Sequence record: NC_106721.1
Length of the DNA stretch: 64,000 nt
From: Escherichia phage EC148
Reading direction: 5' to 3' (one strand)
In this document: positions 180 through 43,912 of the stretch, piece by piece
How the letters are laid out: the number at the start of each line of letters is the position of its first letter
Position numbering within the stretch: the stretch's first letter is position 1
The notes under the pieces: generated by a model
The model's database searches: none
Told to the model about the DNA's origin: nothing
What the model saw: the letters and a program-made list of their open reading frames with translations, nothing else
Program-made: the position numbers and the translations under genes

Positions 180-185
180 ATTGTT

Positions 186-261: not shown

Positions 262-270
262 TTAATTCTT

Positions 271-468
271 TTATTGTGGAGGAATATTAATAATTCGTCC
301 GTCTACACAATAAACGGTACTAGGAATTGTACTATATATGTAGAAATTCTTTATATTACTCTCTCCGCCACAGAAATTTTTAGCAAATTCATACTCTTTA
401 TTAATGGTTGAGTCAAGTTTAAAACAACCAGTAAGTAGGAATACAGACAGCAGTAAAACTTTTTTCAT
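271..468 (-). CDS. small lipoprotein (signal peptide plus lipobox LLTGC), 65 aa
   Basis: N-terminus MKKVLLLSVFLLTGC; AGGAAA Shine-Dalgarno upstream; own promoter at 501-529. Confidence 0.55.
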   Translation of the reverse strand: MKKVLLLSVFLLTGCFKLDSTINKEYEFAKNFCGGESNIKNFYIYSTIPSTVYCVDGRIINIPPQ

Positions 469-500
469 TTTGCTTTCCTTCTCAACACTTTATAAGGTAT

Positions 501-529
501 ATTATACAGAGAATTAAGCATAATAGCAA
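501..529 (-). promoter_or_regulatory. sigma70-type promoter (minus strand) for the lipoprotein gene
   Basis: Read on minus strand: -35 TTGCTA, 17-nt spacer, -10 TATAAT, with A-rich upstream and extended TG. Confidence 0.6.
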
Positions 530-679
530 ATGAATTTTTAATAAATTTACTTATTGTGTAGGCCACCTGGAGGCTACCAACCCCACGGCTGACAAAGAAG
601 TTTGCGAGACCTCTCTTAAGTGCCAGAATAGACCCGCCGATCTATCGGAACCTACATAATAAGTAAACTTTATAGTGTC

Positions 680-799
680 ATTCTAGACAGGACTCGAACC
701 TGTTATCACTTGTGCGGACTTACGAGAACCATTCTTTCACTCGAATCGAACGAGCTTCTGCCCTCGCCAAGCTGGTTTCCCCATCAACCACGCTAGAAT
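680..799 (-). ncRNA. tRNA-like element, about 120 nt, not resolvable as a canonical tRNA
   Basis: Perfect T-arm ACAGG-TTCGAGT-CCTGT (plus 687-703) and an exact 7-bp acceptor-like pairing between plus 680-686 and 793-799, but 120 nt apart; second T-arm-like motif at plus 739-755. Confidence 0.25.
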
Positions 800-921
800 G
801 TTTGATTGTTTTCAGTGCAAGAGTCCGAGTCTTGGACACGACCGCTTCGCAAGTACATAGGCAGCTTATCATGAGTCAGCACTTCCGAATTGCTAGCTCC
901 GTGTTCTGCACTGAAATTTTA

Positions 922-1269
922 TTAGTTTAACCGTAAAGTATTATCTACTTCACCATTAATTGTTCGGCATTCTTCTGGGATTGCTGGTGTAGCCTTATAT
1001 TCCCACCATTCAGAACCGTCGTATTCACCACGTTCTAACCAAGTTCCATCAGTAAACCACACGTTACCATAAAGCAATTGCCCACCGAAACCAGAATCAT
1101 ATTTAAAGTCTAGATTATTTAGAAAATCTTCAATATCTTTTTCTGTATAACCTACGGGTAACACCCAAACTTCTTTGTCCCCATAATAACCGAATTCTAT
1201 CTTAATACACTTAACTTCAGAATTAATATTCTTTAAGGCAAGTAACAATTCTTCTTTAGCATTAATCAT
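922..1269 (-). CDS. hypothetical protein, 115 aa, Trp/Tyr/Gly-rich
   Basis: Intact ORF between tRNA genes on the same strand as the tRNAs. Confidence 0.5.
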   Translation of the reverse strand: MINAKEELLLALKNINSEVKCIKIEFGYYGDKEVWVLPVGYTEKDIEDFLNNLDFKYDSGFGGQLLYGNVWFTDGTWLERGEYDGSEWWEYKATPAIPEECRTINGEVDNTLRLN

Positions 1270-1295
1270 AGCATATTTCTCGTACTAGTTTAATT

Positions 1296-1372
1296 TGGCG
1301 CGACCGATGGGATTTGAACCCACATTCCCTCCCGTGACAGGGGAGTACCATTACCAAGCCAGCCCCGGTCGC
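1296..1372 (-). tRNA. tRNA-Asp (anticodon GUC)
   Basis: Acceptor GCGACCG/CGGTCGC perfect, T-loop TTCAAAT, anticodon stem CTCCC/GGGAG with loop CTGTCAC, CCA encoded. Confidence 0.65.
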
Positions 1373-1381
1373 ATAATTCAT

Positions 1382-1567
1382 TTACTCAGCTTTGAGTTTT
1401 TCAATAGCTGCATTAAGTTCTTTAAGAAACTTTTTTCGTACATTAAGACGGTTGAGACTTACTAGTATATCATGTTTAAGTTCTTCGATGTATTTCTTCT
1501 CAACTTCAATATTGTTGATAGTGCTATCACGATGAACTTCTAGCTGTGCAATTACATTCTTGGACAT
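1382..1567 (-). CDS. hypothetical small coiled-coil protein, 61 aa
   Basis: ORF with charged heptad-like sequence; co-oriented with neighbours. Confidence 0.4.
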   Translation of the reverse strand: MSKNVIAQLEVHRDSTINNIEVEKKYIEELKHDILVSLNRLNVRKKFLKELNAAIEKLKAE

Positions 1568-1669
1568 GCTTGTTTCCTCAGTTATTAATGAAAATGGTAT
1601 CTGTGACTGAATTCGATGTCAGCAATGATAGCTGGTTGGCTACCGGTTTACTTAACTCTACACAGAATT

Positions 1670-1753
1670 TGGCGGGCCGTGTAGGATTCGAACCTACGTT
1701 GTCTTTCGACATGGATTAACAGTCCACCGCCAAACCGCTTGGCTAACGACCCT
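1670..1753 (-). tRNA. tRNA with anticodon GUU (Asn-type) and a 13-nt variable arm
   Basis: Acceptor GGGTCGT/ACGGCCC, D-stem GCCA/TGGC, anticodon stem GTGGA/TCCAT with loop CTGTTAA, variable arm GTCGAAAGACAAC, T-arm GTAGG-TTCGAAT-CCTAC, CCA encoded; 84 nt. Confidence 0.5.
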
Positions 1754-1904
1754 AAATTTATATTGCTGACTAGGATTTTCACCTAGACGGAGTTAGCACC
1801 GTAGCGTGTAGCGGCATACCTCTCCAAACCGTGCCTCATCTTTCAATTACGGAGACAGTGTTCCTACGCGTGCCTGAATTGATTTAACAACTCTTTCAGC
1901 AAAT

Positions 1905-1980
1905 TGGACGACCGCATGAGATTTGAACTCACATAAAAAGGATTTGCAATCCTTCGCCTAAGCCATTCAGCCAACGGTCG
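1905..1980 (-). tRNA. tRNA-Cys (anticodon GCA)
   Basis: Acceptor with one G-U pair, T-loop TTCAAAT, anticodon stem AAGGA/TCCTT with loop TTGCAAA, CCA encoded. Confidence 0.65.
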
Positions 1981-2028
1981 ATTTATCTTGTTCTGTCATG
2001 TTGCTTCTCCAGTTCAATTTATGTAATT

Positions 2029-2057
2029 ATTATACAGAACTTTTGGAAACTAAGCAA
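2029..2057 (-). promoter_or_regulatory. sigma70-type promoter (minus) upstream of tRNA-Cys
   Basis: -35 TTGCTT / 17 nt / -10 TATAAT on minus strand. Confidence 0.55.
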
Positions 2058-2337
2058 CTACATTTTTTAAAAATTTGATGCCTTTCTTTTTCTTCTTATA
2101 TTTCCACGTTAAGGGATTCTGTCGATTATGAACGCTTGAGATCTTTGTCTCGTCAAAGTTCTTCAATATCATGTAATCACAGGATAATTGTTCTAATGGA
2201 ATGTGATCACCGTCAAAAGCGTATACATAAGGCTGTTGACTAGCACGATAATGATAGACTTTGTTAATTCTACGCTTCAGCAACTTATCCGCGCAGTAAA
2301 TAAAGAAGTTTTCAGGATGCATCAGCAGCTCCCTCAA
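2050..2337 (-). CDS. hypothetical protein, 95 aa
   Basis: ORF co-oriented with the tRNA island. Confidence 0.4.
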   Translation of the reverse strand: MRELLMHPENFFIYCADKLLKRRINKVYHYRASQQPYVYAFDGDHIPLEQLSCDYMILKNFDETKISSVHNRQNPLTWKYKKKKKGIKFLKNVVA

Positions 2338-2339
2338 TT

Positions 2340-2414
2340 TGGTGCACCCTGTTCGTATCGAACGAACCTCTCAAGCTCTTCAGGCAAGCGCTAATCCATC
2401 TCAGCTAAAGGTGC
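2340..2414 (-). tRNA. tRNA-like, anticodon not resolved (possibly CCU); may be degenerate
   Basis: Acceptor pairing plus 2344-2350 with 2408-2414 and perfect T-arm GTTCG-TTCGATA-CGAAC, CCA encoded; only a 4/5-bp anticodon stem could be found. Confidence 0.35.
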
Positions 2415-2420
2415 AAATTT

Positions 2421-2497
2421 TGGCAAACCTACTAGGACTCGAACCTAGACCGTACGGTTTTGGAGACCGACATGCTGTCCAGTAACACTCTAGGAAT
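2421..2497 (-). tRNA. tRNA-Trp (anticodon CCA)
   Basis: T-arm CTAGG-TTCGAGT-CCTAG, anticodon arm CGGT-CTCCAAA-ACCG closely resembling E. coli tRNA-Trp (from memory); acceptor stem has two U-U mismatches; CCA encoded. Confidence 0.5.
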
Positions 2498-2505
2498 GCA
2501 GGAAT

Positions 2506-2582
2506 TGGCGTCCTGTGCGGGGATCGAACCCACAAATCCTACCTTGAAAGGGTAGTGACTTTACCAGTTTGTCTAACAGGAC
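2506..2582 (-). tRNA. tRNA-Glu (anticodon UUC)
   Basis: Perfect acceptor GTCCTGT/ACAGGAC, T-loop TTCGATC, anticodon stem CTACC/GGTAG with loop CTTTCAA, CCA encoded. Confidence 0.7.
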
Positions 2583-2589
2583 TTAAATT

Positions 2590-2680
2590 TGGTGTTGGAT
2601 GATGGAGTCGAACCACCCGAGACCCTTCCGAGTCGGCAGATTTACAGTCTGCTTCGCTACCTCTACGATACTAATCCAAC
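2590..2680 (-). tRNA. tRNA-Tyr (anticodon GUA), about 18-nt variable arm
   Basis: Acceptor GTTGGAT/ATCCAAC perfect, anticodon stem GCAGA/TCTGC with loop CTGTAAA, extended variable arm forming a mini-hairpin, T-arm GGTGG-TTCGACT-CCATC; 91 nt. Confidence 0.6.
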
Positions 2681-2761
2681 ATATTTAAAAGTATTCAAAT
2701 ACTAGTTTAAACACTTTTAGATATGTTTCCAAATTAGATAACTATTATATCAAGTTTTATG

Positions 2762-2800
2762 GCACTGAGCAAGTCAAATTTTAAAGAACTTGCTCAGTGC
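2762..2800. terminator. 12-bp-stem hairpin (possible terminator) just downstream of the TGA-containing ORF
   Basis: GCACTGAGCAAG ... CTTGCTCAGTGC inverted repeat; weak T-run. Confidence 0.4.
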
Positions 2801-2808
2801 TGTATTAG

Positions 2809-3084
2809 TTAGTCGAACTTAGGAGCGACAGTTAAGGAGAATGGAAGTTCGAAAACTTCTTCGCCCTCATCACTAACAGTAATTACACGACCTTTAAGTT
2901 CAGACATTGAAATATCAATATCAGCTTTTGCATCTGGAGCCATGCCAGCTTCAATACATTTAGCTTTAACTTCCGGCAGAAGTTCTACATCGTAGAAATA
3001 AAGCCATTCAATCTCACCTTCCCAGCCTTCTCAGGATTTACAGATTGCACTTTCAATACCAGTTGCTATAACACGATTTTGCAT
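2809..3084 (-). CDS. hypothetical protein interrupted by an in-frame TGA at codon 18 (readthrough candidate or disrupted gene)
   Basis: ATG at plus 3084-3082 with GAAGGAG Shine-Dalgarno 7 nt upstream; frame reads MQNRVIATGIESAICKS-TGA-EGWEGEIEWLYFYDVELL... to TAA at plus 2811-2809. Confidence 0.35.
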
Positions 3085-3174
3085 TCGTTAACTCCTTCAT
3101 CAATTTATATAACTATTATACCAGAAATTTAAAGCAAAAGGCAAGTACATTTTTAAAAATTCTGTTTGGAGGAG

Positions 3175-3381
3175 CTAAACTCCAGATTCTTCAGCTAAGT
3201 CTAGGCTAATAAGAGATATAGCCATAATTGCTGCTCCGTGTTCTCTTTCTCCTGTCTCTTTAGCTAGGGTTATAATATCAAGAAATTGCTTATGAAAGTC
3301 TGCAACCTCTTGAGTCATACCTGCCTCAGCAATCATGCCTTTAAGCATGAAACGTTGTGCGGTAATTTCGGGATTAGCCAT
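3175..3381 (-). CDS. hypothetical protein, 68 aa
   Basis: ORF; start overlaps stop of upstream small ORF (ATGGCTAA arrangement). Confidence 0.45.
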   Translation of the reverse strand: MANPEITAQRFMLKGMIAEAGMTQEVADFHKQFLDIITLAKETGEREHGAAIMAISLISLDLAEESGV

Positions 3382-3541
3382 GTTGTTTCTCCAGTTTCAT
3401 GTTTAATAGTCTACAAATAAAATCAATGTCTTCATCTGTGCCTAGATCTCTATCTTCAAGAGTTGCCTTGAAGTTTTTCGTCAATTCCATGAGGATAACT
3501 TCTCTAGAACGACGTGTTGGCGGAGGTGGATGTCTATACAT
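3374..3541 (-). CDS. hypothetical small protein, 55 aa (MYRHPPPPTRR...)
   Basis: Hand-translated; AAGGAAA Shine-Dalgarno upstream; below the length cut-off of the supplied ORF track. Confidence 0.35.
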   Translation of the reverse strand: MYRHPPPPTRRSREVILMELTKNFKATLEDRDLGTDEDIDFICRLLNMKLEKQHG

Positions 3542-3556
3542 CTTATTTCCTTAAGT

Positions 3557-3633
3557 TGGTAGGGGTGGTGGGATTCGAACCCACAAAACCTGAATTTTAA
3601 GTCCAGTACCTATACCAATTCGATTACACCCCC
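3557..3633 (-). tRNA. tRNA with anticodon UAA (Leu-type anticodon) but short 5-nt variable arm
   Basis: Acceptor GGGGGTG/CACCCCT (one G-U), T-arm GTGGG-TTCGAAT-CCCAC, anticodon stem CTGGA/TTCAG with loop CTTAAAA, CCA encoded; D-stem poorly defined. Confidence 0.5.
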
Positions 3634-3734
3634 ATGTAATCAGTTTATTAGTTGATACATATTATAGCCTAGTGAAAATCCTACTACTAGTCCCACAAAC
3701 CAACCAATATAATAATCTTTTAGTTTCACAGGTA

Positions 3735-3920
3735 TTATCCTCGTTCAATATCTAGGGAAACACCGCAGTTAGGATTAATACCTGTACCGTTGCAATTTGA
3801 ACAAATCCAGATATTGCAAAAAGTATCTCCTGCTTCTGCATCAGAACTTTCACCAATTCCCCTACACTCAGGGCAGGCACATTCTTCTAGCTCTTGCTTG
3901 AGTTCTTGAAACTTGGACAT
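3735..3920 (-). CDS. Cys-rich zinc-ribbon-like small protein, 61 aa
   Basis: Paired Cys motifs CACPEC ... CSNCNG. Confidence 0.45.
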   Translation of the reverse strand: MSKFQELKQELEECACPECRGIGESSDAEAGDTFCNIWICSNCNGTGINPNCGVSLDIERG

Positions 3921-3929
3921 ATAGTCTCC

Positions 3930-4121
3930 TTAGTCAATTACTTTTGAGGCTTCAAGGGAGTCGATATAGTATACGTTTTCTACCATAATCATATAATCTG
4001 CCACTTTATCCATAGCTTGGGCCTCAGAGGTAGCTCTGGCTAACCTATATCCTTTTTTATATTCATCCGGGTATTCTCTATCTTGAATAAATACAACATA
4101 AACTATGTATAATTCCACTTG
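3930..4121 (-). CDS. hypothetical protein; start uncertain (possible GTG start)
   Basis: The supplied ORF 3930-4265 runs through tRNA genes at 4139-4216, so the true start must lie below about 4130. Confidence 0.3.
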   Translation of the reverse strand, partial: QVELYIVYVVFIQDREYPDEYKKGYRLARATSEAQAMDKVADYMIMVENVYYIDSLEASKVID

Positions 4122-4138
4122 TAATCCCCTAATTAAGT

Positions 4139-4216
4139 TGGTGGCTCCCCGAGGATTCGAACCTACGTACCTTCCGGTTATGAGCCGGGTGCTCATACCA
4201 TATGAGCTTGAGAACC
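4139..4216 (-). tRNA. tRNA, anticodon CAU (Met/Ile2-type)
   Basis: Acceptor with two G-U pairs, D-stem GCTC/GAGC, anticodon stem CCGG/CCGG with loop CTCATAA, weak 3-bp T-stem around TTCGAAT, CCA encoded. Confidence 0.5.
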
Positions 4217-4222
4217 AGAATT

Positions 4223-4311
4223 TGGCGGAAGAAGTGGGAATCGAACCCACAAGGCTATATTTCAAACCGACAGATTAGCAATCTGCTGCAATACCGTTAT
4301 GCTATTCTTCC
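4223..4311 (-). tRNA. tRNA-Ser (anticodon GCU), type II
   Basis: Perfect acceptor GGAAGAA/TTCTTCC, anticodon stem GCAGA/TCTGT with loop TTGCTAA, long variable arm, T-arm GTGGG-TTCGATT-CCCAC; 89 nt. Confidence 0.65.
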
Positions 4312-4326
4312 GAATTTATAAGATAT

Positions 4327-4355
4327 ATTATATTAGAAATTTAGCTTCATAGCAA
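4327..4355 (-). promoter_or_regulatory. sigma70-type promoter (minus) driving the tRNA-Ser / tRNA-CAU cluster
   Basis: -35 TTGCTA / 17 nt / -10 TATAAT on minus strand, directly upstream of the tRNA at 4223-4311. Confidence 0.6.
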
Positions 4356-4851
4356 GAAAATTTTTCAAGTTTTCGGTAGACATCTCATCCACATCTACGG
4401 GAGAAACAAAGCCGTTTAATTTTCTAGCAAATTTTTCACCCGCAGGATCGTTGTCTCCGACAGCTACCAATTTAAAAGGTAATAATTTCAGTTGCTTTAA
4501 TAACGCTTTTCCTGGAGAAGAACCTAACATTGCCAGGGCTGGATAACCAGCGTTATGTAGCGCAACTGCCTTAAATACAGATTCAGCGATCAATACTACT
4601 TTTTCATCTCCATTGAGAGTTTCTAGTCCCCATACACACTGGGTAGTAGAATAAGTAAAATATTTAGCTTCAAAGGGACACTTACCATGACCTTTTGGAG
4701 CAGAAGGATTATACGTCTGATAGCCTCGCAACATCCCGGAGAAGTCATACAACGGGACTGTTAGCCATCCTTCCGGACTTAACCAGCAATGATATTTATC
4801 TGTATCAAATCCTCTGGATAAGAGGTGCTGTGTTAGCTCATCAACATTCAT
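4333..4851 (-). CDS. Toprim-domain protein (DnaG-like catalytic core, no zinc finger)
   Basis: Conserved Glu in VVLIAESVF and DxD in LVAVGDNDPAGEKFARKL; start set at MNVDEL because the promoter at 4882-4910 lies inside the longer ORF. Confidence 0.55.
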   Translation of the reverse strand: MNVDELTQHLLSRGFDTDKYHCWLSPEGWLTVPLYDFSGMLRGYQTYNPSAPKGHGKCPFEAKYFTYSTTQCVWGLETLNGDEKVVLIAESVFKAVALHNAGYPALAMLGSSPGKALLKQLKLLPFKLVAVGDNDPAGEKFARKLNGFVSPVDVDEMSTENLKNFLAMKLNF

Positions 4852-4881
4852 ATTTGGTTCCTCTCTCAAATTTATAGATAT

Positions 4882-4910
4882 ATTATACAGAGAATTTAGC
4901 ATTCAAGCAA
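4882..4910 (-). promoter_or_regulatory. sigma70-type promoter (minus) for the Toprim-protein gene
   Basis: -35 TTGCTT / 17 nt / -10 TATAAT on minus strand. Confidence 0.55.
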
Positions 4911-5025
4911 TCAAATTTTTTAACTTTTTAGAGGAAAATCATAGGGCACTTAAGGGTAGCAGATAAGTGGGGAGGACCAAAATTTGTGACCCCACTAAAA
5001 ATCCGGGGGCAATTTTTAAAGACCC

Positions 5026-5054
5026 CTTGACATTTTCGCTGGGGTAGTGTAAAG
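5026..5054 (+). promoter_or_regulatory. sigma70-type promoter for the plus-strand three-gene cassette
   Basis: -35 TTGACA (5026-5031), 17-nt spacer, -10 TAAAGT (5049-5054). Confidence 0.55.
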
Positions 5055-5117
5055 TATATGTTATGGATGAGTGATCAAAGAGACACACATTTTCTATATA
5101 CTAGGAGGTGTCAAAAT

Positions 5118-6107
5118 ATGACAGAAGAAGTAGCTAAGAGTCCTGAGACCGTCGCTAGCGTTGCAGCAGAACTGCACAGTCACGAGGAATCAGATAAGAA
5201 AAAGTGGGAGAAGGTCAGAGCCTACGAAGAAAAACATCGTGAACACGATGATGAAGAAGAAGATGACGATGATGAACATTGTCATAAATATGGAAAACAT
5301 AAAATGCAAGAACCAGTAAACGTATTCACTAGTGGCTTCCCTGGCCTACTGGGTGGTTACCCAGCAAACGCAGGTGCTTTCGGTGGTGAAGGTATGGGAC
5401 TATTCGGAGCTATCCTAATCGGTGCTCTATTAACCGGCGGATTCGGTGGTTTCGGTGGATTCGGTGGACGTGGTGTAGTTGGTGAAGGTACCGCAGTTGA
5501 TGCAGTACTTCAGAACCAAGATACCGCTAGTATTCTAGCAGCTATCAACACTACTCGTACAGAGGCTAACCAGGGTACTGGAGCTGTTTTAAGCGCAGTT
5601 AACAATGGTTTTAGCCAGACAACCCAAAACCAGAGCCGTGATACTCAGTCTGTACTAACTACGATCTACGGTACAGGTGCTAATCTGTCTAATCAGATCT
5701 GCCAGGAAACTCGCAACGTTATTCAGGGTCAGTTCGATCTTTCTCGCCAGATTGATCAATCTTTCGCAGCTAACCAGATAGCTCGTGCACAAGATAAGTT
5801 TGATTCTGCACAGATCGCTTTCCAGCAGACTTTACAAACTAATAACCAGTTTGCCGCTGTTCAGGCTCAGATGTGTGCTAACCAGAACTCTCTGGAACGT
5901 CAGATCGCTGAATGTTGCTGTGAACTTCAGACTGCGATCGCTGGTGTAACTACTGCGCGTATCCAGGATGAGTTAGACGCATGTCGCCTACGTGAAGCAA
6001 TCGCTGCGGGTAGCGGTGCTAACGGTCAGGTAATTAATCAAATCGCTTTAAGTCTTGGTGCTATCACTCAGACTCTGGCTGGTCTGCAGGCTAAACTGCC
6101 GGCTTAA
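5118..6107 (+). CDS. hypothetical low-complexity protein: polyacidic N-terminus, Gly-zipper hydrophobic segment, Gln/Asn/Thr-rich C-terminal region with Cys cluster
   Basis: Strong RBS TAGGAGGTG before ATG 5118; promoter at 5026-5054; translation-optimised codon choice; no recognisable catalytic motif. Confidence 0.6.
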   Translation: MTEEVAKSPETVASVAAELHSHEESDKKKWEKVRAYEEKHREHDDEEEDDDDEHCHKYGKHKMQEPVNVFTSGFPGLLGGYPANAGAFGGEGMGLFGAILIGALLTGGFGGFGGFGGRGVVGEGTAVDAVLQNQDTASILAAINTTRTEANQGTGAVLSAVNNGFSQTTQNQSRDTQSVLTTIYGTGANLSNQICQETRNVIQGQFDLSRQIDQSFAANQIARAQDKFDSAQIAFQQTLQTNNQFAAVQAQMCANQNSLERQIAECCCELQTAIAGVTTARIQDELDACRLREAIAAGSGANGQVINQIALSLGAITQTLAGLQAKLPA

Positions 6108-6128
6108 TATTAAGGGGAGGAGCCCATT

Positions 6129-6545
6129 ATGAGTAAATATGGTTTTGTAAATAACGGACTTAATCAAAGTATGGGCTCCCAGCAGCCCATTCCGGGTCTG
6201 GATAACCCCTACTTACAACAGTTGCAACAGCGTTTAGCAGAAGCGCAACAGATGCAGCAACAACTCCAGCAAAACCCTGGAAGTGTGAGTCCTATGCAAA
6301 TGATGCAGCAAATGAGCGGGCAGTCGCAAATGCCTCAACAAATGCAGCAACAGGTGCCTCAGCAGCAAGTTCAGCAACAAACCCAACAACCGCAGGTTTC
6401 TGCGGAAGGACAGGCAGTACTAGCCCTTTTCGAAGACTTCGCAAAGACAGAGGATGGGAAACAGCTTGTATCACTTATGGGTAAGTTTAATAGCTTCTGC
6501 CAAAGCCAAGTTGCAAAAGCTCAAAATGGGGGTAGTAACTCCTAA
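6129..6545 (+). CDS. hypothetical Gln-rich protein, 138 aa
   Basis: RBS AAGGGGAGG; Q-rich repeats (PQQMQQQ...). Confidence 0.6.
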   Translation: MSKYGFVNNGLNQSMGSQQPIPGLDNPYLQQLQQRLAEAQQMQQQLQQNPGSVSPMQMMQQMSGQSQMPQQMQQQVPQQQVQQQTQQPQVSAEGQAVLALFEDFAKTEDGKQLVSLMGKFNSFCQSQVAKAQNGGSNS

Positions 6546-6554
6546 GGAGGAAAT

Positions 6555-6749
6555 ATGTGTTGCAGAAAATCTGTTTCGTGCTGCCCAGTGCCTGTAGCAC
6601 GTTGTTGCTCTCCAGCAATGTTTACGCAAATACCGGCGTTCAATCCCTTTGCCTTTAAGCCTACTCTTATCCTGCCCCCTAGAGTAGATTTTCAGTCAAG
6701 ATTGGCCTCCCGTATGGGTGGTTGCTGTACACCGAGAGTATGGTTCTAA
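6555..6749 (+). CDS. hypothetical Cys-rich small protein, 64 aa
   Basis: RBS AAGGAGG; 8 Cys including CC pairs; followed by terminator hairpins. Confidence 0.55.
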   Translation: MCCRKSVSCCPVPVARCCSPAMFTQIPAFNPFAFKPTLILPPRVDFQSRLASRMGGCCTPRVWF

Positions 6750-6761
6750 ACCAAAAACAAA

Positions 6762-6795
6762 AGCCCCTGCCGAAAGGTAAGGGGCTTTTTCTTTT
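6762..6795 (+). terminator. rho-independent terminator ending the plus-strand cassette
   Basis: AGCCCCT...AGGGGCT hairpin followed by TTTTTCTTTT. Confidence 0.65.
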
Positions 6796-6799
6796 GCCT

Positions 6800-6840
6800 T
6801 AAATACAGAAAAGCCCGCGCTCTCGTAGGAAACGCGGGCT
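6800..6840 (-). terminator. rho-independent terminator for the SPFH gene (convergent with the previous one)
   Basis: GCCCGCG...CGCGGGC hairpin followed on minus strand by TTTTCTGTATTT. Confidence 0.6.
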
Positions 6841-31563: not shown

Positions 31564-31974
31564 ATGACTACTCCAACTCAGTGGACTGATGAACTGTTCG
31601 AAAAAATGTCTTCCGAATACGTTGCTCGTATGGAGCAATTCCCAGAGGATGAACGTCCGGGTGTTAGCATGGAAATTGTTAGCGAAATTGCTCAGGAAAA
31701 TGGTGTAACTCCGAACGGTTTTCGTATGAAGTTGACCAAAGCAGGTGTATATATCAAGAAAGCTGCTGGCTCTGCTTCTAAATCTAGTGCATCTACTGGA
31801 GAAAAAGCTTCTGGTGGTTCTCGCACTTCCAAAGCCCAAGCTCATGCCGATCTTCGTTCAGCATTCTCTGATGCTGGCCTAGCACCAGATTTTCTGGATG
31901 ATGCAATTATCGACAAACTGACCGGTAAAGCGGCTGCTCATCTGGCAGAAGCAATCCGAGCTATCACTAAGTAA
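31564..31974 (+). CDS. hypothetical protein, translation-optimised codons
   Basis: Promoter 31478-31506; strong host-like codon bias. Confidence 0.5.
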   Translation: MTTPTQWTDELFEKMSSEYVARMEQFPEDERPGVSMEIVSEIAQENGVTPNGFRMKLTKAGVYIKKAAGSASKSSASTGEKASGGSRTSKAQAHADLRSAFSDAGLAPDFLDDAIIDKLTGKAAAHLAEAIRAITK

Positions 31975-33997: not shown

Positions 33998-34140
33998 TAC
34001 ATAACCCTTTGCTACCCATCTACCATATCGGAATTATAAAGTGGTTATTGACATTTTCGCCGCTTAGGTATATACTAGTATCATTCAGTTGAGGGATAGA
34101 AAGTTATGGCGAGGGTAAGCAAAGTTAGTTAAAATTGTAG

Positions 34141-34169
34141 TTGCTAAATGCTTAAATACTTGCTATAAT
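34141..34169 (+). promoter_or_regulatory. sigma70-type promoter (plus) between the two ligase genes
   Basis: -35 TTGCTA / 17 nt / -10 TATAAT. Confidence 0.6.
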
Positions 34170-34196: not shown

Positions 34197-34970
34197 TTGA
34201 TGAAAATCGAAATTCCAACACAATGTCCCTCTTGTGGTTCTAAGCTAGATCTTGTCAACGGACAATTATTTTGTCGGAATAAGTCCAACTGTCCAGCGCA
34301 ATCAAGTAAGTTAATTGAGAACTTCTGTACAAAAATGAAGTTAAAGGGTTTTGGTCCAAAAACTATTGAGAAGCTGGAGCTGACGAAGATTTCAGAACTA
34401 TTTTACCTAACCGAAGAAGATTTGGTTAGAGCCGTGGGTAGCAAGGTTGCCGCTAAGTTAATTAGCGAATTAAATACTAAAGTTCGCGGAGACATTGACT
34501 TTGGTTCAGTTCTCGGTTCTTTAGGAATCCCTCTAATTGGAGAGGTTGCAGCAAAGAAATTATCCCAAAATTGCACTAGCTTCCACGATGTGAAGGCTGA
34601 CGGCAAGGCTGGAGAAAATTATAAAGCCTGGCTAAATTCCCCACAAGGCAAGGATGTTATCGAATTACCGTGGAAATTCTCAACTGGTGCTAAAGCTAAA
34701 ACCGTCGTTACTGATGATTTAGTTGCCCAGCCAAATGGAATCGCGGTATGTATTACCGGATCTTTGCAAGACTTTGCAAATCGAACGGATGCAACAAACT
34801 ATTTAGAAGGTCTAGGATATACGGTTAAGAAATCTGTTACCAAAGACGTCAAATACCTAATCTGTGAGGATGAATCGAAGCGTTCTTCCTCATCTTATAA
34901 GAAAGCCGAAACGAATGGGATAGAAATCCTGTCGATTAAAGAACTATTGGAGAAAAATAATAATGTCTAA
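34197..34970 (+). CDS. NAD-dependent DNA ligase, zinc-finger/HhH/BRCT subunit
   Basis: CPSCGS...C...C zinc finger, HhH-like segment, C-terminal BRCT-like region; separated from the adenylation gene by a promoter-containing spacer. Confidence 0.75.
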   Translation: MMKIEIPTQCPSCGSKLDLVNGQLFCRNKSNCPAQSSKLIENFCTKMKLKGFGPKTIEKLELTKISELFYLTEEDLVRAVGSKVAAKLISELNTKVRGDIDFGSVLGSLGIPLIGEVAAKKLSQNCTSFHDVKADGKAGENYKAWLNSPQGKDVIELPWKFSTGAKAKTVVTDDLVAQPNGIAVCITGSLQDFANRTDATNYLEGLGYTVKKSVTKDVKYLICEDESKRSSSSYKKAETNGIEILSIKELLEKNNNV

Positions 34971-35730
34971 ACTGAACTGGAACGTAGAAGGTGTAACCGA
35001 GTCTCTGAAAGCAAAAGCCACTGCTCTGGGTGTTTCTGTAATCTCTCAAGAACAAGTAGCCGCTATCGCCGCTGAACTGGCTGCTGAAACTGGCAAAGAT
35101 GTTACCGCCCGCTCTGTTGGCTCTAAACTGCGTAAAGAAGGTTTTGAAGTACAGAAAGCTAACGAAGTACAGAAATCCCCGTGGACTCCTGAGCAGGAAG
35201 CTGAACTGGTTGATTTCCTGAACGCTCATGCTGGTCAGTATACCTATGCTGAAATCGCTGCTGCTGTAGCTGGTGGTCAGTTCGGTGCTAAGCAGGTACA
35301 GGGTAAGATTCTGAGCCTGGAAATGACCGCTTCTGTTAAACCAACTGAAAAAGCTGCTGCTGTTCGTTCCTTTACTCCGGATGAAGAAACTGATTTTGTT
35401 AATCAGGTTGTTGCTGGTGCTACTATTGAAGCTATCGCTGCTCACTTCGGTCGCAATATTAAGCAGATCCGTGGTAAAGCTCTGAGTCTGCTTCGTGAAG
35501 GTCGTATCGCTGCTATGCCGGTACAGGAAACCTCAAGTGCTAAAACTCGTGAAGATCTGTTAGAAGGTCTGGATCTGGTTAACATGACTGTTGCTGAGAT
35601 CGCTGAGAAAACTGGTAAATCTGAGCGCGGTGTTAAATCTATGCTGTCTCGTCGTGGTCTGGTTGCTAAGGACTATGATGGTGCCGCTAAGCGTGCTAAA
35701 CTGGATGCAAAAGCTGCGGCTGCTGAATAA
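34963..35730 (+). CDS. hypothetical protein with three tandem HTH-like repeats, translation-optimised codons
   Basis: Repeats YAEIAAAV.../IEAIAAHFGRNIKQIRGKALSL/VAEIAEKTGKSERGVKSMLS; followed by strong terminator. Confidence 0.55.
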   Translation: MSKLNWNVEGVTESLKAKATALGVSVISQEQVAAIAAELAAETGKDVTARSVGSKLRKEGFEVQKANEVQKSPWTPEQEAELVDFLNAHAGQYTYAEIAAAVAGGQFGAKQVQGKILSLEMTASVKPTEKAAAVRSFTPDEETDFVNQVVAGATIEAIAAHFGRNIKQIRGKALSLLREGRIAAMPVQETSSAKTREDLLEGLDLVNMTVAEIAEKTGKSERGVKSMLSRRGLVAKDYDGAAKRAKLDAKAAAAE

Positions 35731-35747: not shown

Positions 35748-35781
35748 AAGGGGAGGGGGCTATGCTCCTTCCCCTTTTTGC
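35748..35781 (+). terminator. rho-independent terminator after the HTH-repeat gene
   Basis: AAGGGGAGGG...CCTTCCCCTT hairpin followed by TTTTTG. Confidence 0.65.
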
Positions 35782-35812
35782 ATTTAGAAGGCACGAAAGC
35801 GTGCAAAGGAGA

Positions 35813-37285
35813 ATGACCTTGTTTAACGTGCAAGCTGTAGTGTTGAAGATGCTTCTAGCTTCCGAACAGAAGCAAATAGCATTGGAAACATTCTCAAAAC
35901 TGCATAAAGATCATTTTAATGACGCTTTCTCCTCAATTTACCAAGCCGTCCAGAATTATTATAAAAAATATAACACAATGCCGTCCATTGACGCACTTAT
36001 GCTTGAAGCTAATAGGAACGCCCGCCTTTCTCAAGCCCTAGTCGTCTTAGCTAACACTCAAATTCCAGAAGTGAGCATGGAACAGGCACTTGAAGTCCTA
36101 GAGGCCGAGTATACACAGGATTTATTCCTGAAGCTTCTAGAAACAGACGTGCTTCAAGATTTAACAATGCTGGATCAGGGAGAAATTCTCAACCGAGTTG
36201 CCTCCCTTCACTTAAAATTAGAAGAGAAAGTAACGAATACTGGAAAAGTATTCAACGCAGATAACATGCGTATTTTCCAGAGAGAAGAAGATACCAAACT
36301 GAACTTAATCGCTCTTGGTATTTGTAATGAGTTCGATGCTCAAATTGGTTTAGCTCGCACAGAAACGTTACTGCTTGGTGGTTGGCGTGGTACTGGTAAA
36401 TCCATTATCTGTTCAAACATACAGGTTCAGCAATATTTGAATGGAGATATTGCTCCATACTTCTCAATTGAGATGAAAGAACATGAAGTATTTAGACGTA
36501 ATCTAGCCATGTTAGCCGGGGTATCAGCACTAGCAATGCGTAATAATACTCTAGAAGGTGCAGCTCTATTGAGATTAGCCAGAACTAGAGCTAGAATGTT
36601 CAACGGGGGTGAAGAGCTTTTCGATAACTTCGTTAAACAGTATACAATGGCTAAGATGAGTGATTTCTACGATATGGAGAGTAAGCTAATAGAGGGGTAT
36701 GAACTACATACTCCTATGATTATCGTTTATGACCCTGAACTGTCCATTACAACAGTTGACGTAGAATTAAATAAATTAGTTGCTAGATATGGTGATAAAG
36801 TTACAGTAGCTTTACTGGACTATATTAACCAAACCCGACTTCCAGATTCTAAAACCATTGATATGTATGACTGGAAGGAACAGATGGTTGTTAGCTCGTC
36901 TTTCAAATCCATCTGCCAGAAACATAACGTGGCTGGCGTAGCTCCCTACCAGATCGATCAAGATGGTAGAACACGTATGTCAAAGGGGATTCTTGATTCC
37001 GCAGACATGGCTGCTAATCTTAATGCTGCTAAAGCTGATAATGGTCAAGGTGCTATTATGTTTGACTTTGTTAAGACTCGTTCTTCTGATAGCGTGAAGT
37101 TTATGCCTAAAATGAATTGGGAAACTCTGCGAATGGATAATACTACCAACCTAGCAATGGAAGATATATCTCAAATGGAAGCTGAGTTCGTTATCCCTAT
37201 TGAGAAGGATAAGCCGGCTCAACCTAAACGTTCTAAGAAAGACAAAACTGAAAATTCAACAGGTGAACAGGCCAGCGATATATGA
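35813..37285 (+). CDS. putative DnaB-like replicative helicase (RecA-fold ATPase)
   Basis: Walker A GGWRGTGKS; start set at MTLFNV with RBS AAGGAG because the longer ORF overlaps the upstream terminator. Confidence 0.5.
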   Translation: MTLFNVQAVVLKMLLASEQKQIALETFSKLHKDHFNDAFSSIYQAVQNYYKKYNTMPSIDALMLEANRNARLSQALVVLANTQIPEVSMEQALEVLEAEYTQDLFLKLLETDVLQDLTMLDQGEILNRVASLHLKLEEKVTNTGKVFNADNMRIFQREEDTKLNLIALGICNEFDAQIGLARTETLLLGGWRGTGKSIICSNIQVQQYLNGDIAPYFSIEMKEHEVFRRNLAMLAGVSALAMRNNTLEGAALLRLARTRARMFNGGEELFDNFVKQYTMAKMSDFYDMESKLIEGYELHTPMIIVYDPELSITTVDVELNKLVARYGDKVTVALLDYINQTRLPDSKTIDMYDWKEQMVVSSSFKSICQKHNVAGVAPYQIDQDGRTRMSKGILDSADMAANLNAAKADNGQGAIMFDFVKTRSSDSVKFMPKMNWETLRMDNTTNLAMEDISQMEAEFVIPIEKDKPAQPKRSKKDKTENSTGEQASDI

Positions 37286-42861: not shown

Positions 42862-43146
42862 ATGCTTACAGAGCCTGATGCTCATCAATTATTGGTCGGT
42901 TCCTCATTCATTTTGAATGAATCAACAATAGTTGATAATCCAAATAAATTGTCTAATAGACAACTGGCAGAATATCTAGGAATTTTAAGTCTACGAAATT
43001 ATGCCGAATACAAGTTTACAAACGATCCTAGTTTGGACATACAATATGTTCCAGTATGGATACCACGTTTAGTAATCGACACTAACCCACTAATCGCAAT
43101 TAACAAATCGAAATTAATCTTTAAAGAGGAAATAAAATATGGCTAA
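42862..43146 (+). CDS. hypothetical protein
   Basis: ORF downstream of promoters 42625-42653 and 42725-42754. Confidence 0.4.
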   Translation: MLTEPDAHQLLVGSSFILNESTIVDNPNKLSNRQLAEYLGILSLRNYAEYKFTNDPSLDIQYVPVWIPRLVIDTNPLIAINKSKLIFKEEIKYG

Positions 43147-43912
43147 GTCTTGGGGCGAAACTACTGGCGGTTCTAACGATAAAATCGAATTCCTGAAGTT
43201 CAACAACGGTATCACTCGTGTTCGTATCGTTTCTGGTGTTCTTCCACGTTATGTCTATTGGCTGACTAATAAAGAGGGTAACGTAGCTCCTTTCGAATGT
43301 CTCCGTTTTAACCGTGACAAAGAGAGCTTTGTTCGTGGTAAAGCTGATCCGGTTCATGAGATGGGCTTCTTCGAGAAAGAGCTGGATAAAGATGGTAATC
43401 GTGTTCCGCTGAAACCGAAGAAAAACTATATCGCTTTTGTTATCGACCGTTCTGATAACAAACTGAAAGTAATGGAAGTCAAGGCTACTATTCTGAAAGG
43501 CATCCAGTCTATCATGAAGCAGCTGAGCCTGGCAACTCCGTTTGATATTGATATTTCTATCGAGAAAAAAGGTAAAGGTTTCGATACTGAGTATGATGTA
43601 CAGCAGATTGCTGCTATGCAGTTCCAGATTAAGCTGCAAGATCCTAACAGTGCAGAATCTAAGCAATATGCTGCAGATGTAGATCTGATCGGTGAAGCTA
43701 TGTGTGATGAAGATGGCGACATCATTAAGTTCGAAAAAGTTCCTTCTCTGGAACAAACCTATCCGGTTCCTACCTATGAAGAGCAGAAAGAAGCAATTCT
43801 AGCCTTCATGGAAGGTCGTGAGAATAAAGATGATGATGCCAAATCTGGTAATAGCAATGCAGGCTCCCAGAAAGGTATTGACACAGAAGCTGCAAGCGAT
43901 CTGGATGACTAA
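43139..43912 (+). CDS. putative ssDNA-binding protein (acidic C-terminal tail), translation-optimised codons
   Basis: Acidic C-terminus (...DTEAASDLDD), strong codon bias, position in replication module; functional call is inference. Confidence 0.4.
   Translation: MAKSWGETTGGSNDKIEFLKFNNGITRVRIVSGVLPRYVYWLTNKEGNVAPFECLRFNRDKESFVRGKADPVHEMGFFEKELDKDGNRVPLKPKKNYIAFVIDRSDNKLKVMEVKATILKGIQSIMKQLSLATPFDIDISIEKKGKGFDTEYDVQQIAAMQFQIKLQDPNSAESKQYAADVDLIGEAMCDEDGDIIKFEKVPSLEQTYPVPTYEEQKEAILAFMEGRENKDDDAKSGNSNAGSQKGIDTEAASDLDD

What the first reader, a model, noticed from the sequence alone, without database searches (positions are those of the whole stretch)
34963..35730. Highly codon-optimised protein built from three HTH-like repeats
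Three tandem units, each with an AEIA-type helix followed by a basic G/R-K-x-L-S segment, strong codon bias and a strong terminator suggest an abundant DNA-binding or transcription-modulating early protein.
Basis: inference. Interest (0 to 1): 0.35.

Follow-up and report, generated by a model that had tools for sequence, protein, structure and literature searches.

The report
Phage T5 gene D5 DNA-binding protein

Summary
The ORF 34963-35730 (+) is gene D5 of a phage T5 relative. It is 100% identical in DNA to the D5 gene of T5_ev212 and differs by one amino acid from T5.118 of the T5 reference genome, which is annotated as a DNA-binding protein required for replication and late transcription.

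All three observed features are real:
- **Repeat motif:** it occurs three times, at residues 96, 156 and 211. No more than one match occurred in any of 20,000 shuffles.
- **Codon bias:** CAI is 0.70, the highest of 80 ORFs in the window (median 0.24, flanking genes 0.23-0.36).
- **Terminator:** a 13-bp hairpin plus T-run follows the stop codon.

One correction: a family alignment and a confident AlphaFold2 model (pLDDT 94) show four helix-turn-helix (HTH) modules, not three. U2 and U3 are clear duplicates and look Myb/SANT-like. U1 and U4 are more divergent. U4 passes Pfam's cut-off for sigma-70 region 4.

Conservation concentrates in the basic third helix of each module. Gene order, codon bias and the terminator are all kept in a marine relative at 50% identity.

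The gene is already known. A 2026 preprint also makes D5 the trigger of a type IX retron. How D5 acts on late transcription remains unresolved.

The parts
34048..34076 (+). Promoter P-K28b (TTGACA, 17 nt, TATACT; 11 of 12 matches), the first of two tandem promoters upstream of ligB and D5
   Evidence: Consensus scan. It lies within the stretch annotated 'promoter P-K 28b' in NC_005859, and the sequence there is nearly identical.
34141..34169 (+). Promoter P-K28a (TTGCTA, 17 nt, TATAAT, with an extended -10 TG)
   Evidence: Consensus scan. It lies within the stretch annotated 'promoter P-K 28a' in NC_005859.
34197..34970 (+). ligB, NAD-dependent DNA ligase subunit B. It is the upstream cistron, its stop codon overlaps the D5 start (ATGTCTAA), and its CAI is only 0.23. 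The exact start is uncertain (34191, 34197 or 34200).
34949..34953 (+). Shine-Dalgarno sequence GGAGA for D5, followed by an A/T-rich spacer before the ATG at 34963
   Evidence: Read directly from the sequence. Its function is inferred.
34963..35730 (+). Gene D5: 255 aa, 27.1 kDa, pI 6.8, no cysteine, 17% alanine
34984..35148 (+). Module U1 (residues 8-62), a three-helix HTH with helices 11-22, 29-43 and 49-58. The third helix, ARSVGSKLRK, has net charge +4 and carries invariant R50, K55, L56 and R57.
   Evidence: The family profile matches engrailed-homeodomain variants in the PDB at E = 0.003.
35176..35322 (+). Module U2 (residues 72-120), a Myb/SANT-like three-helix HTH (W74-TPEQEAELV ... 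YAEIAAA ... AKQVQGKILS). Invariant residues are E97, Q113, G114, K115 and L117.
   Evidence: The Pfam Myb_DNA-binding match scores 17.6 bits, below the cut-off.
35365..35502 (+). Module U3 (residues 135-180), a duplicate of U2 (F137-TPDEETDFV ... IEAIAAHF ... IKQIRGKALSLLR). Invariant residues are R135, E142, E156, G171 and K172.
   Evidence: Profile comparison of U2 with U3: probability 96%, E = 2e-9.
35536..35667 (+). Module U4 (residues 192-235), an HTH with helices 210-217 and 221-231 (MTVAEIAEKTGKSERGVKSMLSRRG). Invariant residues are G223, L228, R230 and R231.
   Evidence: Pfam Sigma70_r4_2 scores 28.8 bits against a cut-off of 25.7, over residues 204-230. 29 of 37 family members match it.
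35680..35724 (+). Basic C-terminal helix (residues 240-254, GAAKRAKLDAKAAAA, net charge +3), preceded by the conserved D237-x-x-G240
   Evidence: Its role in cooperativity or as an extra DNA contact is inferred.
35748..35786 (+). Intrinsic terminator: a 13-bp G+C-rich stem with a 3-nt loop, followed by TTTTTGCATTT
   Evidence: A 15-bp-stem terminator sits at the same place after the D5 homologue of a marine relative (L003 6751-6783).

Best explanation
The ORF is gene D5 of a T5-type phage (Tequintavirus). It is an early gene, co-transcribed with ligB from the tandem promoters P-K28b and P-K28a, and the unit is closed by a strong intrinsic terminator.

**Expression.** The gene has its own ribosome-binding site and uses almost only the codons of highly expressed E. 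coli genes. It is therefore made in far larger amounts than ligB, encoded on the same transcript, or the helicase and primase genes beyond the terminator.

**Architecture.** The 27-kDa protein is a chain of four small helix-turn-helix modules joined by conserved linkers and ending in a basic helix. In each module the first two helices are acidic. The third is basic and carries most of the invariant residues.

**Mechanism (inferred).** The most likely mechanism is that each third helix sits in a major groove. One monomer would then grip several successive turns of duplex DNA with little sequence preference, and many copies would coat the phage DNA.

**Function (from the literature and the RefSeq annotation, not tested here).** D5 binds double-stranded DNA. 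It is needed for T5 DNA replication and late transcription, and it helps shut off early genes. I infer that this comes from changing the template, by occluding early promoters and nicks and organising replicating DNA, rather than from acting as a classical site-specific activator.
For: **Identity**
- The DNA is 100% identical to the CDS 'D5 protein/DNA-binding protein' of T5_ev212. 509 phage records cover at least 80% of the gene.
- The gene differs from T5.118 of NC_005859 at 27 of 768 nt but at only one amino acid, so purifying selection is strong.
- PHROG 323 'D5-like' matches at E = 1.4e-71.

**Expression signals**
- CAI is 0.70 against 0.23-0.36 for the neighbours and 0.344 +/- 0.027 expected from their codon usage.
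- Promoters and terminator are in place.
- The other codon-optimised early genes in the window are an SSB-family gene and the DNA-binding protein D3. High bias therefore marks DNA binders needed in bulk.
- In a marine relative at 50% identity, the D5 homologue keeps the ligA-ligB-D5-DnaB-primase-PolA order, has the lowest Nc of 16 genes (38.5), and has a terminator at the same place.

**Fold**
- The AlphaFold2 model has mean pLDDT 93.7. It shows three three-helix units plus an HTH and a C-terminal helix.
- Profile comparison of U2 with U3 gives E = 2e-9.
- Sigma70_r4_2 scores above Pfam's cut-off. Across the family, 29 of 37 members match Sigma70_r4_2, 16 match HTH_23 and 8 match Myb.
- Distant profile hits are arrays of Myb or HTH_23 domains.

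**DNA-reading surface**
- 14 of 23 invariant columns fall in the 44 residues of the four third helices (hypergeometric P = 8e-7). Each third helix has net charge +2 to +4.

**Literature**
- RefSeq note for T5.118.
- McCorquodale et al. 1979, J Virol 29:322, as cited in PMC12630848.
[quoted passage not shown] The binding is an AlphaFold3 prediction supported by mass photometry and escape mutants. The escape mutations G53D and W74* fall on near-invariant columns of my alignment (bioRxiv 10.64898/2026.07.11.737809).
- The D5 homologue is among the major proteins in phiR2-01 particle preparations.
Against: - No DNA-binding experiment could be run here.
- Cooperative, sequence-independent binding rests on my memory of 1979-1983 biochemistry (Rice, Ficht, Holladay and Moyer, JBC 1979; Fujimura and Roop, J Virol 1983). 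I could not open those papers.
- The relative arrangement of the four modules is uncertain (pTM 0.53).
- No structural match in the PDB is significant. The best E-values are 0.03 for the whole chain and 0.09 for U2-U3.
- The protein is electrically neutral overall (pI 6.8), which is unusual for a pure DNA-coating protein.
- The conserved linkers could instead be contact sites for partner proteins.
- SANT-type modules in other proteins bind proteins rather than DNA.
- How D5 promotes late transcription is not known. Klimuk et al. 2020 state that the mechanism of the T5 temporal switch is unknown and attribute part of it to gpT5.026 (PMC7472727).
Confidence: 0.8

Rival explanations
1. D5 is a sequence-specific transcription factor or a sigma-appropriating factor. 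One or more modules, especially the sigma-70 region-4-like U4 and U3, would recognise a defined element at T5 promoters or take the place of sigma region 4 on RNA polymerase. This would switch off early sigma-70 promoters and switch on late ones.
For: - U4 passes the Pfam cut-off for Sigma70_r4_2 (28.8 against 25.7 bits), and 29 of 37 homologues match it.
- The third helix of U3 (KQIRGKALSLLR) resembles the -35-reading helix of sigma-70 (RQIEAKALRKLR). BLASTP gives E = 0.008 for that single comparison.
- Some distant relatives fuse a sigma/LuxR-type HTH to D5-like units (P0243 and P0255).
- Several GenBank records name the gene 'late gene transcription factor' or 'transcription factor D5'.
- The D5 phenotype includes loss of late transcription and failure of early shutoff.
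Against: - A site-specific regulator is needed in tens to hundreds of copies. It would not need the most extreme codon bias in 64 kb.
- The Pfam match covers only 27 of 54 model positions, the generic HTH core. No sigma region 2 or 3 is present.
- Early and late T5 promoters are both strong sigma-70 promoters (PMC7472727).
- D5 is also needed for replication.
Confidence: 0.12
2. D5 is mainly a protein-protein scaffold of the replication-transcription machinery. The Myb/SANT-like modules and conserved linkers would bind T5 DNA polymerase, helicase or RNA polymerase, and DNA binding would be secondary.
For: - The inter-module linkers are highly conserved (VKPTEK 125-130, I182/P186/Q188, D237/G240). 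That is unexpected for passive tethers.
- SANT-type three-helix modules in eukaryotes often bind proteins (general knowledge).
- The gene sits inside the replication module in all relatives examined.
- From memory, D5 was reported in a T5 transcription-replication complex (Ficht and Moyer 1980). I did not check this here.
Against: - Conservation peaks on the basic third helices, not on the acidic first helices that SANT domains use for protein contacts.
- The literature and annotation describe direct duplex-DNA binding, and the retron preprint proposes binding to the msDNA stem-loop.
- A scaffold for enzymes that are themselves poorly codon-optimised would not need to be made in such excess.
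Confidence: 0.06
3. D5 is a DNA-associated protein that is packaged with, or stays bound to, the genome in the virion.
For: The D5 homologue Gp110 was among the major proteins by spectral count in purified phiR2-01 particles (PMC8624392).
Against: - The same paper notes that D5 was not found in the T5 virion proteome.
- An abundant DNA-binding protein easily contaminates particle preparations.
- The gene is early and lies in the replication module, not the structural module.
Confidence: 0.02

Closest known systems
Phage T5 gene D5 product (T5.118, YP_006946.1; PHROG 323 'transcriptional regulator, D5-like')
   Same: This is the same gene. It is 100% identical in DNA to the T5_ev212 copy and differs by one amino acid from the T5 reference. 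It has the same neighbours (ligB upstream, D6 helicase downstream), the same promoters and the same terminator.
   Different: Nothing of substance differs. The window's phage differs from reference T5 at 27 synonymous or near-synonymous positions in this gene, and it lacks the HNH gene hegJ further downstream.
Tandem Myb/SANT repeats (c-Myb R2R3; the CDC5L/Cef1 Myb pair; the Timeless tandem Myb-like DNA-binding domain, PDB 6TAZ)
   Same: - U2 and U3 are adjacent three-helix modules.
- Each opens with an aromatic residue followed by T-x-E-E and has a K-Q-x-R-x-K/R third helix.
- They align to Myb proteins in the PDB (3OSF, 1H8A) and to 6TAZ.
- The best Foldseek hits for U2-U3 are the CDC5L chains of spliceosome structures, with probability about 0.9.
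- 8 of 37 homologues match PF00249 at E < 1e-3.
   Different: - Scores are below threshold for this protein: 17.6 against 24.4 bits, and Foldseek E is 0.09 or worse.
- The second and third conserved tryptophans of Myb repeats are replaced by aliphatic residues.
- The modules are embedded between two further HTH units of another subtype.
- The protein comes from a phage.
Sigma-70 region 4.2 and LuxR/GerE-type HTH domains
   Same: - U4 (residues 204-230) scores above the Pfam cut-off for Sigma70_r4_2.
- The third helix of U3 resembles the -35-reading helix of sigma-70.
- Foldseek lists TraR, NarL and DosR DNA complexes among the matches.
   Different: - Only the HTH core is matched.
- There is no sigma region 2 or 3 and no receiver or ligand domain.
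- D5 has four modules in one chain, where these proteins have one per chain acting as a dimer or within the holoenzyme.
Bipartite or multi-HTH DNA binders (Tc3, Mos1 and SETMAR transposase DNA-binding domains; Pax paired domain; POU domains)
   Same: Several small three-helix HTH modules in one polypeptide, joined by linkers, each reading a separate stretch of the major groove. They recur among the structural matches and among viral multi-HTH proteins.
   Different: Those proteins are sequence-specific, present in low copy number, and have two modules. D5 has four and carries the marks of a bulk protein.
Abundant phage-encoded duplex-DNA-binding proteins such as SPO1 TF1 (HU family); named from memory as functional analogues
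   Same: These are early, highly expressed phage proteins. They bind phage duplex DNA in bulk and affect transcription and replication.
   Different: The fold is unrelated: TF1 is an HU-type dimer, while D5 is a monomeric four-HTH chain. There is no sequence relationship. I did not test this comparison here.
Winged-helix subunit of the type IX retron-Kva2
   Same: According to a 2026 preprint, an HTH of D5 is proposed to bind the retron's msDNA stem-loop as the retron's own winged-helix protein does, and so to trigger the defence. The binding mode is an AlphaFold3 prediction.
   Different: This is mimicry at the level of one module only. It is a host counter-measure that exploits D5, not the function of D5 for the phage.

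Membership tests
T5 D5 protein family (PHROG 323) | Full-length sequence homology to T5 D5 | tested here: met
   PHROG 323 matches at E = 1.4e-71 over residues 1-253. The DNA is 100% identical to the annotated D5 of T5_ev212. There is one amino-acid difference from YP_006946.1.
T5 D5 protein family (PHROG 323) | Position in the early replication module, between ligB and the DnaB-like helicase | tested here: met
   The order is the same in the window, T5_ev212, NC_005859 and a marine relative at 50% identity.
T5 D5 protein family (PHROG 323) | Binds double-stranded DNA; required for replication, late transcription and early shutoff | not testable with these tools
   Taken from the RefSeq note and the citation of McCorquodale et al. 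1979. The primary paper was not held.
Helix-turn-helix DNA-binding domains (Pfam HTH clan) | Three-helix bundle with a helix-turn-helix and a conserved, basic third helix | tested here: met
   The AlphaFold2 model has pLDDT 93.7, with helices at 11-22/29-43/49-58, 76-88/95-101/109-118, 139-150/155-162/166-178 and 210-217/221-231. 14 of 23 invariant columns fall in the third helices (P = 8e-7), and each has charge +2 to +4.
Sigma-70 region 4 (PF08281) / sigma factor | Pfam score above the gathering cut-off | tested here: met
   28.8 bits against a cut-off of 25.7, but only model positions 23-49 of 54 are matched (residues 204-230). 29 of 37 homologues match.
Sigma-70 region 4 (PF08281) / sigma factor | Presence of sigma regions 2 and 3 (core binding, -10 recognition) | tested here: not met
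   There is no Sigma70_r2 match. The sub-threshold Sigma70_r3 match (20.7 against 25.3 bits) lies on the same HTH of U4. D5 is not a sigma factor.
Myb/SANT domain (PF00249) | Pfam score above the gathering cut-off | tested here: not met
   17.6 bits against 24.4 for residues 71-100. 8 of 37 homologues reach E < 1e-3, with a best value of 4e-6.
Myb/SANT domain (PF00249) | Three regularly spaced aromatic (Trp) core residues per repeat | tested here: inconclusive
   The first aromatic residue is conserved (W74 near-invariant; F137, with Y in the consensus). The later positions are aliphatic (L/I) in the alignment.
Myb/SANT domain (PF00249) | Structural match to solved Myb repeats | tested here: inconclusive
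   The U2-U3 model (pLDDT 90.8) has the CDC5L Myb pair as its top Foldseek hits, with probability 0.90-0.92. However, E is 0.09, TM is about 0.35 and rmsd is 12-16 A over both modules.
Homeodomain-like HTH_23 (PF13384) | Pfam score above the gathering cut-off | tested here: not met
   22.0 bits against 24.6 for residues 151-184. 16 of 37 homologues reach E < 1e-3.

The most novel reading that the evidence does not exclude
D5 may be a phage 'chromatin' protein of a kind not yet described structurally: a monomeric chain of four HTH modules, two Myb/SANT-like and two sigma-region-4-like, that coats T5 DNA.

Its sigma-4.2-like third helices would compete with sigma-70 for the -35 regions of early promoters. 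That competition would drive early shutoff and the switch to late transcription. Promoters that depend less on the -35 contact, for example extended -10 promoters, would escape.

The family would be a variable-number HTH array. I saw relatives with five units and long Myb/HTH_23 arrays.
Probability: 0.12. Interest if true: 0.5.

Novelty: already known. Interest (0 to 1): 0.2.

Why it matters
The main result is a calibration. Raw sequence features (extreme host-type codon bias, repeated HTH-like motifs, a strong terminator) were enough to infer the nature of a classic phage protein.

D5 itself still has open questions. It has no solved structure, and how it drives T5 replication, early shutoff and late transcription has not been worked out since the 1970s. 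It has also just been reported as the trigger of a type IX retron.

The four-module map given here names the conserved third-helix residues (R50/K55/R57, Q113/K115, R170/K172, R230/R231) and the conserved linkers. These are concrete targets for mutagenesis and for interpreting retron-escape mutations: G53D, W74* and G232D fall in or next to these elements.

Tried and rejected
- **PDB sequence searches.** The single sequence gave nothing below E = 0.5. The family profile gave only engrailed-homeodomain variants at E = 0.003 on U1.
- **Foldseek against the PDB.** Neither the whole model nor the U2-U3 fragment gave a match at E <= 0.001. No specific structural family can be claimed. The hits are uniformly HTH proteins.
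- **DNA-level repeats in the gene.** Only short GCT-rich chance matches were found. A recent duplication is rejected.
- **Antisense ORF 34936-35445 (169 aa, GTG start).** I rejected it as an artefact. It is the serine-rich reverse reading of a GCT/GGT-rich gene, and no homology supports it.
- **Internal promoter for D5 inside ligB.** None was found on the + strand between 34200 and 34963. D5's excess over LigB is therefore attributed to translation. This is an inference.
- **Primary D5 literature (PMC353123).** It is not held. Several full-text searches found only secondary mentions.
- **Sigma-factor membership.** Rejected, because sigma regions 2 and 3 are absent.
Full report
**What is at the coordinates**

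The stretch 34963-35730 is a complete + strand ORF of 255 codons. Its ATG overlaps the stop codon of the upstream gene (ATGTCTAA) and is preceded by GGAGA and an A/T-rich spacer.

Megablast against 50,697 phage records finds 511 records, 509 of which cover at least 80% of the gene. Nearly all are T5-like phages of Escherichia, Salmonella and Klebsiella. The best hit is 100% identical: Escherichia phage T5_ev212, CDS 'D5 protein/DNA-binding protein'.

In the T5 reference genome the gene is D5 (T5.118, YP_006946.1). Its annotation reads 'DNA-binding protein; required for DNA replication and late transcription; also is involved in shutoff of expression of ...'. The window's copy differs from it at 27 of 768 nucleotides but at only one amino acid, S25D, which indicates strong purifying selection. 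PHROG 323 'transcriptional regulator, D5-like' matches at E = 1.4e-71.

The window is therefore part of the early (D) region of a Tequintavirus. The local gene order is ligA, ligB, D5, D6 (DnaB-like helicase), primase, DNA polymerase.

**Checking the observation**

(a) Repeats
- In 20,000 shuffles of the protein, 7 had one match and none had two or more. That pattern was written after seeing the data.
- I therefore also cut four units out of a 37-sequence family alignment and compared them as profiles. U2 against U3 gives probability 96% and E = 2e-9. U3 against U4 gives 68% and E = 5e-5. U1 against U4 gives 58% and E = 1e-4.
- So there is a fourth, N-terminal unit (...AAIAAELAAETGKDVTARSVGSKLRK) with a shifted form of the motif. 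The protein has four modules, not three.
- A homologue with five modules (P0121, an extra copy of U2) and others with different counts (P0195) show that the module is a real evolutionary unit.
- No repeat is detectable at DNA level, so the duplications are old.

(b) Codon bias
That is the highest of 80 ORFs of at least 80 aa in the window (median 0.24).
- ligB, which I infer shares the transcript, scores 0.23. The helicase and primase just downstream score 0.25 and 0.24.
- Re-encoding the D5 protein with its neighbours' codon usage gives 0.344 +/- 0.027, with a maximum of 0.48 in 2000 trials.
- Codon choice is that of highly expressed E. coli genes: GCT 36 of 44, GGT 17 of 19, CTG 17 of 19, CGT 9 of 12, and no AGA, AGG, ATA or CTA.

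(c) Terminator
- Positions 35748-35776 form a 13-bp stem with 8 G-C pairs and a 3-nt loop, followed by TTTTTGCATTT.
- The hairpin dominates the predicted fold of the 76-nt segment 35725-35800, whose minimum free energy is -25.6 kcal/mol.

**Transcription unit**

Two strong sigma-70-type promoters lie upstream of ligB:
- 34048-34076: TTGACA, 17 nt, TATACT.
- 34141-34169: TTGCTA, 17 nt, TATAAT, with an upstream TG.

They fall inside the stretches annotated as promoters P-K28b and P-K28a in NC_005859. No promoter-like site lies inside ligB on the + strand.

I infer that ligB and D5 form a two-gene early unit closed by the terminator. The large excess of D5 over LigB would then be set by translation, and read-through of the terminator would limit helicase and primase expression. 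The unit's components are observed. The quantitative consequences are inferred.

**Conservation of the arrangement**

A marine metagenomic relative whose D5 homologue is 50% identical keeps the order PC4-like, ligA, ligB, D5, DnaB, primase, PolA, helicase.
- It has a promoter-like site before ligB and a 15-bp-stem terminator immediately after D5.
- Its D5 homologue has the lowest effective number of codons of the 16 genes in the locus: 38.5 against 40-60.

High expression and the operon layout are therefore family traits. An exhaustive profile search of 1.84 billion representative proteins finds 510 clusters at E <= 0.001 and 75 at E <= 1e-30, mostly 240-255 aa.

**Structure**

AlphaFold2 on the family alignment gives a confident model with mean pLDDT 93.7 and no segment below 50. 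The pTM is only 0.53, so the individual modules are well defined but their mutual arrangement is not.

| Module | Helices |
|---|---|
| U1 | 11-22, 29-43, 49-58 |
| U2 | 76-88, 95-101, 109-118 |
| U3 | 139-150, 155-162, 166-178 |
| U4 | 210-217, 221-231 |
| C-terminal helix | 240-254 |

Helices 1 and 2 of each module are acidic. Each third helix carries net charge +2 to +4. 14 of the 23 invariant alignment columns lie in the 44 third-helix residues (hypergeometric P = 8e-7). This is the signature of HTH recognition helices.

The linkers are also conserved (VKPTEK 125-130; I182, P186, Q188; D237, G240). The whole protein is neutral (pI 6.8) and weighs 27.1 kDa.

**Which HTH families**

Pfam results for this protein:

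| Module | Residues | Pfam family | Score (bits) | Gathering cut-off |
|---|---|---|---|---|
| U4 | 204-230 | Sigma70_r4_2 | 28.8 | 25.7 (passed) |
| U3 | 151-184 | HTH_23 | 22.0 | 24.6 |
| U2 | 71-100 | Myb_DNA-binding | 17.6 | 24.4 |
| U1 | 32-68 | HTH_33 | 16.1 | 25.0 |

- The Sigma70_r4_2 match covers only half of the model.
- Across the 37 aligned homologues, 29 match Sigma70_r4_2, 16 match HTH_23 and 8 match Myb_DNA-binding at E < 1e-3.
- No solved structure is a sequence relative. The weak alignments are to Myb proteins (3OSF, 1H8A), with FTPEED and R-Q-C-R aligned to FTPDEE and K-Q-I-R. The family profile also touches engrailed-homeodomain variants (E = 0.003) and the tandem Myb-like domain of Timeless (E = 0.32).
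- Foldseek of the whole model and of a separate U2-U3 model (pLDDT 90.8) gives no significant PDB match. The lists consist almost entirely of HTH proteins, led for U2-U3 by the Myb pair of CDC5L in spliceosome structures (probability about 0.9, E = 0.09).
- In the viral structure library the significant matches are D5 homologues, followed by other multi-HTH phage proteins.
- Distant hits of the D5 profile are confidently annotated arrays of Myb-like domains (P0251, P0259), HTH_7/HTH_23 domains (P0264), or a LuxR/sigma-type HTH followed by D5-like units (P0243, P0255).

I conclude that D5 is a four-module member of the HTH superfamily. It has a Myb/SANT-like central pair flanked by two units closer to the sigma-4/homeodomain-like type. 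It is not a sigma factor, because regions 2 and 3 are absent, and it cannot be filed under Pfam's Myb family at the curated threshold.

**How it most likely works**

Shown here:
- identity with D5;
- four HTH modules with conserved basic third helices;
- the marks of very high expression;
- a conserved place in the replication module.

Also relevant: the other codon-optimised early genes in the window are an SSB-family gene (43139-43912, CAI 0.56) and the DNA-binding protein D3 (31564-31974, CAI 0.55). In this phage, strong bias therefore marks DNA binders needed in stoichiometric amounts.

From annotation and literature:
- D5 binds DNA and is needed for replication, late transcription and early shutoff.
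- From my memory of Rice et al. 1979 and Fujimura and Roop 1983, which I could not check here, binding is to duplex DNA and is cooperative, and it affects T5 DNA polymerase activity at nicks.
- A July 2026 preprint finds D5 monomeric at about 26 kDa and toxic in E. coli. It reports D5 as the trigger of the type IX retron-Kva2, with an HTH of D5 proposed, from an AlphaFold3 model, to bind the retron's msDNA stem-loop. The escape phage carried D5 G53D, W74*, V149I and G232D. G53 and W74 are near-invariant columns in my alignment, and G232 directly follows the U4 third helix.
- The D5 homologue was among the major proteins by spectral count in phiR2-01 particle preparations, in line with great abundance.

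Inferred: each third helix occupies a major groove, so one monomer spans several helical turns. Many monomers would coat phage DNA, and this template-level change would underlie the replication and transcription phenotypes.

Rivals:
- a site-specific or sigma-mimicking regulator (supported by the sigma-4 similarity; weakened by the bulk-expression signature);
- a protein scaffold (supported by the conserved linkers);
- a virion protein (supported only, and contradicted in the same paper for T5).

The mechanism of the T5 early-to-late switch is stated to be unknown in Klimuk et al. 2020 (PMC7472727).

**Verdict**

The object is a classic, already known gene, so novelty is low. The residual interest lies in the undescribed four-module architecture and in the still unexplained way D5 acts on late transcription.

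Noticed in passing
window 35748-35850: The annotated start of the D6 (DnaB-like helicase) ORF is ATG 35762, also used in NC_005859 and LR597659. It lies in the loop of the D5 terminator hairpin. Homology to a marine homologue begins only at residue 32 of this ORF. AAGGAG at 35806-35811 followed by TTG 35819 (7-nt spacer), or ATG 35849, are more plausible starts. No promoter-like site lies between the terminator and D6, so the helicase and primase probably depend on terminator read-through.
   Followed up: partly
window 43139-43912 (+) and 31564-31974 (+): After D5, the most codon-optimised early genes in the window are an SSB-family gene (PHROG 1607, CAI 0.56) and D3 (PHROG 1725 'DNA binding protein', CAI 0.55). 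Strong host-type codon bias seems to mark DNA binders needed in bulk. The marine relative's gene at the D3 position (L003 3136-3531) also has a low Nc (40.4).
   Followed up: partly
window 37282-37285 (junction of D6 and primase): The HNH endonuclease gene hegJ (T5.120) lies between D6 and the primase gene in the T5 reference genome. It is absent here, and the two genes overlap directly, as in T5_ev212.
   Followed up: no
window 34963-35730, compared with NC_005859 67310-68077: There are 27 nucleotide differences but only one amino-acid change (S25D). CAI is unchanged (0.70 against 0.695). Both the protein sequence and the optimal codon usage are under strong constraint.
   Followed up: yes
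D5 residues 53, 74, 149 and 232 (window 35119-35121, 35182-35184, 35407-35409, 35656-35658): A 2026 preprint reports a T5 escape phage of retron-Kva2 carrying D5 G53D, W74* (a stop codon), V149I and G232D. A stop at codon 74 in a gene held to be essential for replication and late transcription is odd. Possible explanations are a mixed population, read-through or re-initiation, or D5 being dispensable under those conditions.
   Followed up: no
proteins P0121, P0195, P0243, P0255, P0251, P0259, P0264: Relatives of the D5 modules occur in different numbers and contexts. One is a five-module D5 (P0121). There are arrays of 6-10 Myb-like or HTH_7/HTH_23 units in proteins of 500-700 aa. Two proteins have an N-terminal LuxR/sigma-4-type HTH followed by several D5-like units. 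Their genomic origin was not examined.
   Followed up: partly
window 102-7921 (- strand): Twelve tRNA genes (Met, Pro, Asp, Asn, Cys, Phe, Trp, Glu, Tyr, Leu-UAA, Ser-GCU, Arg-UCU) belong to the T5 tRNA cluster. The leucine and arginine tRNAs read codons (TTA, AGA) that D5 uses once or not at all, so for these at least D5 relies on host-preferred codons rather than the phage's own tRNAs.
   Followed up: no
window 34936-35445 (- strand): A 169-aa antisense ORF lies inside D5. Its serine-rich translation is the mirror image of the GCT/GGT-rich sense strand, and I regard it as an artefact.
   Followed up: partly
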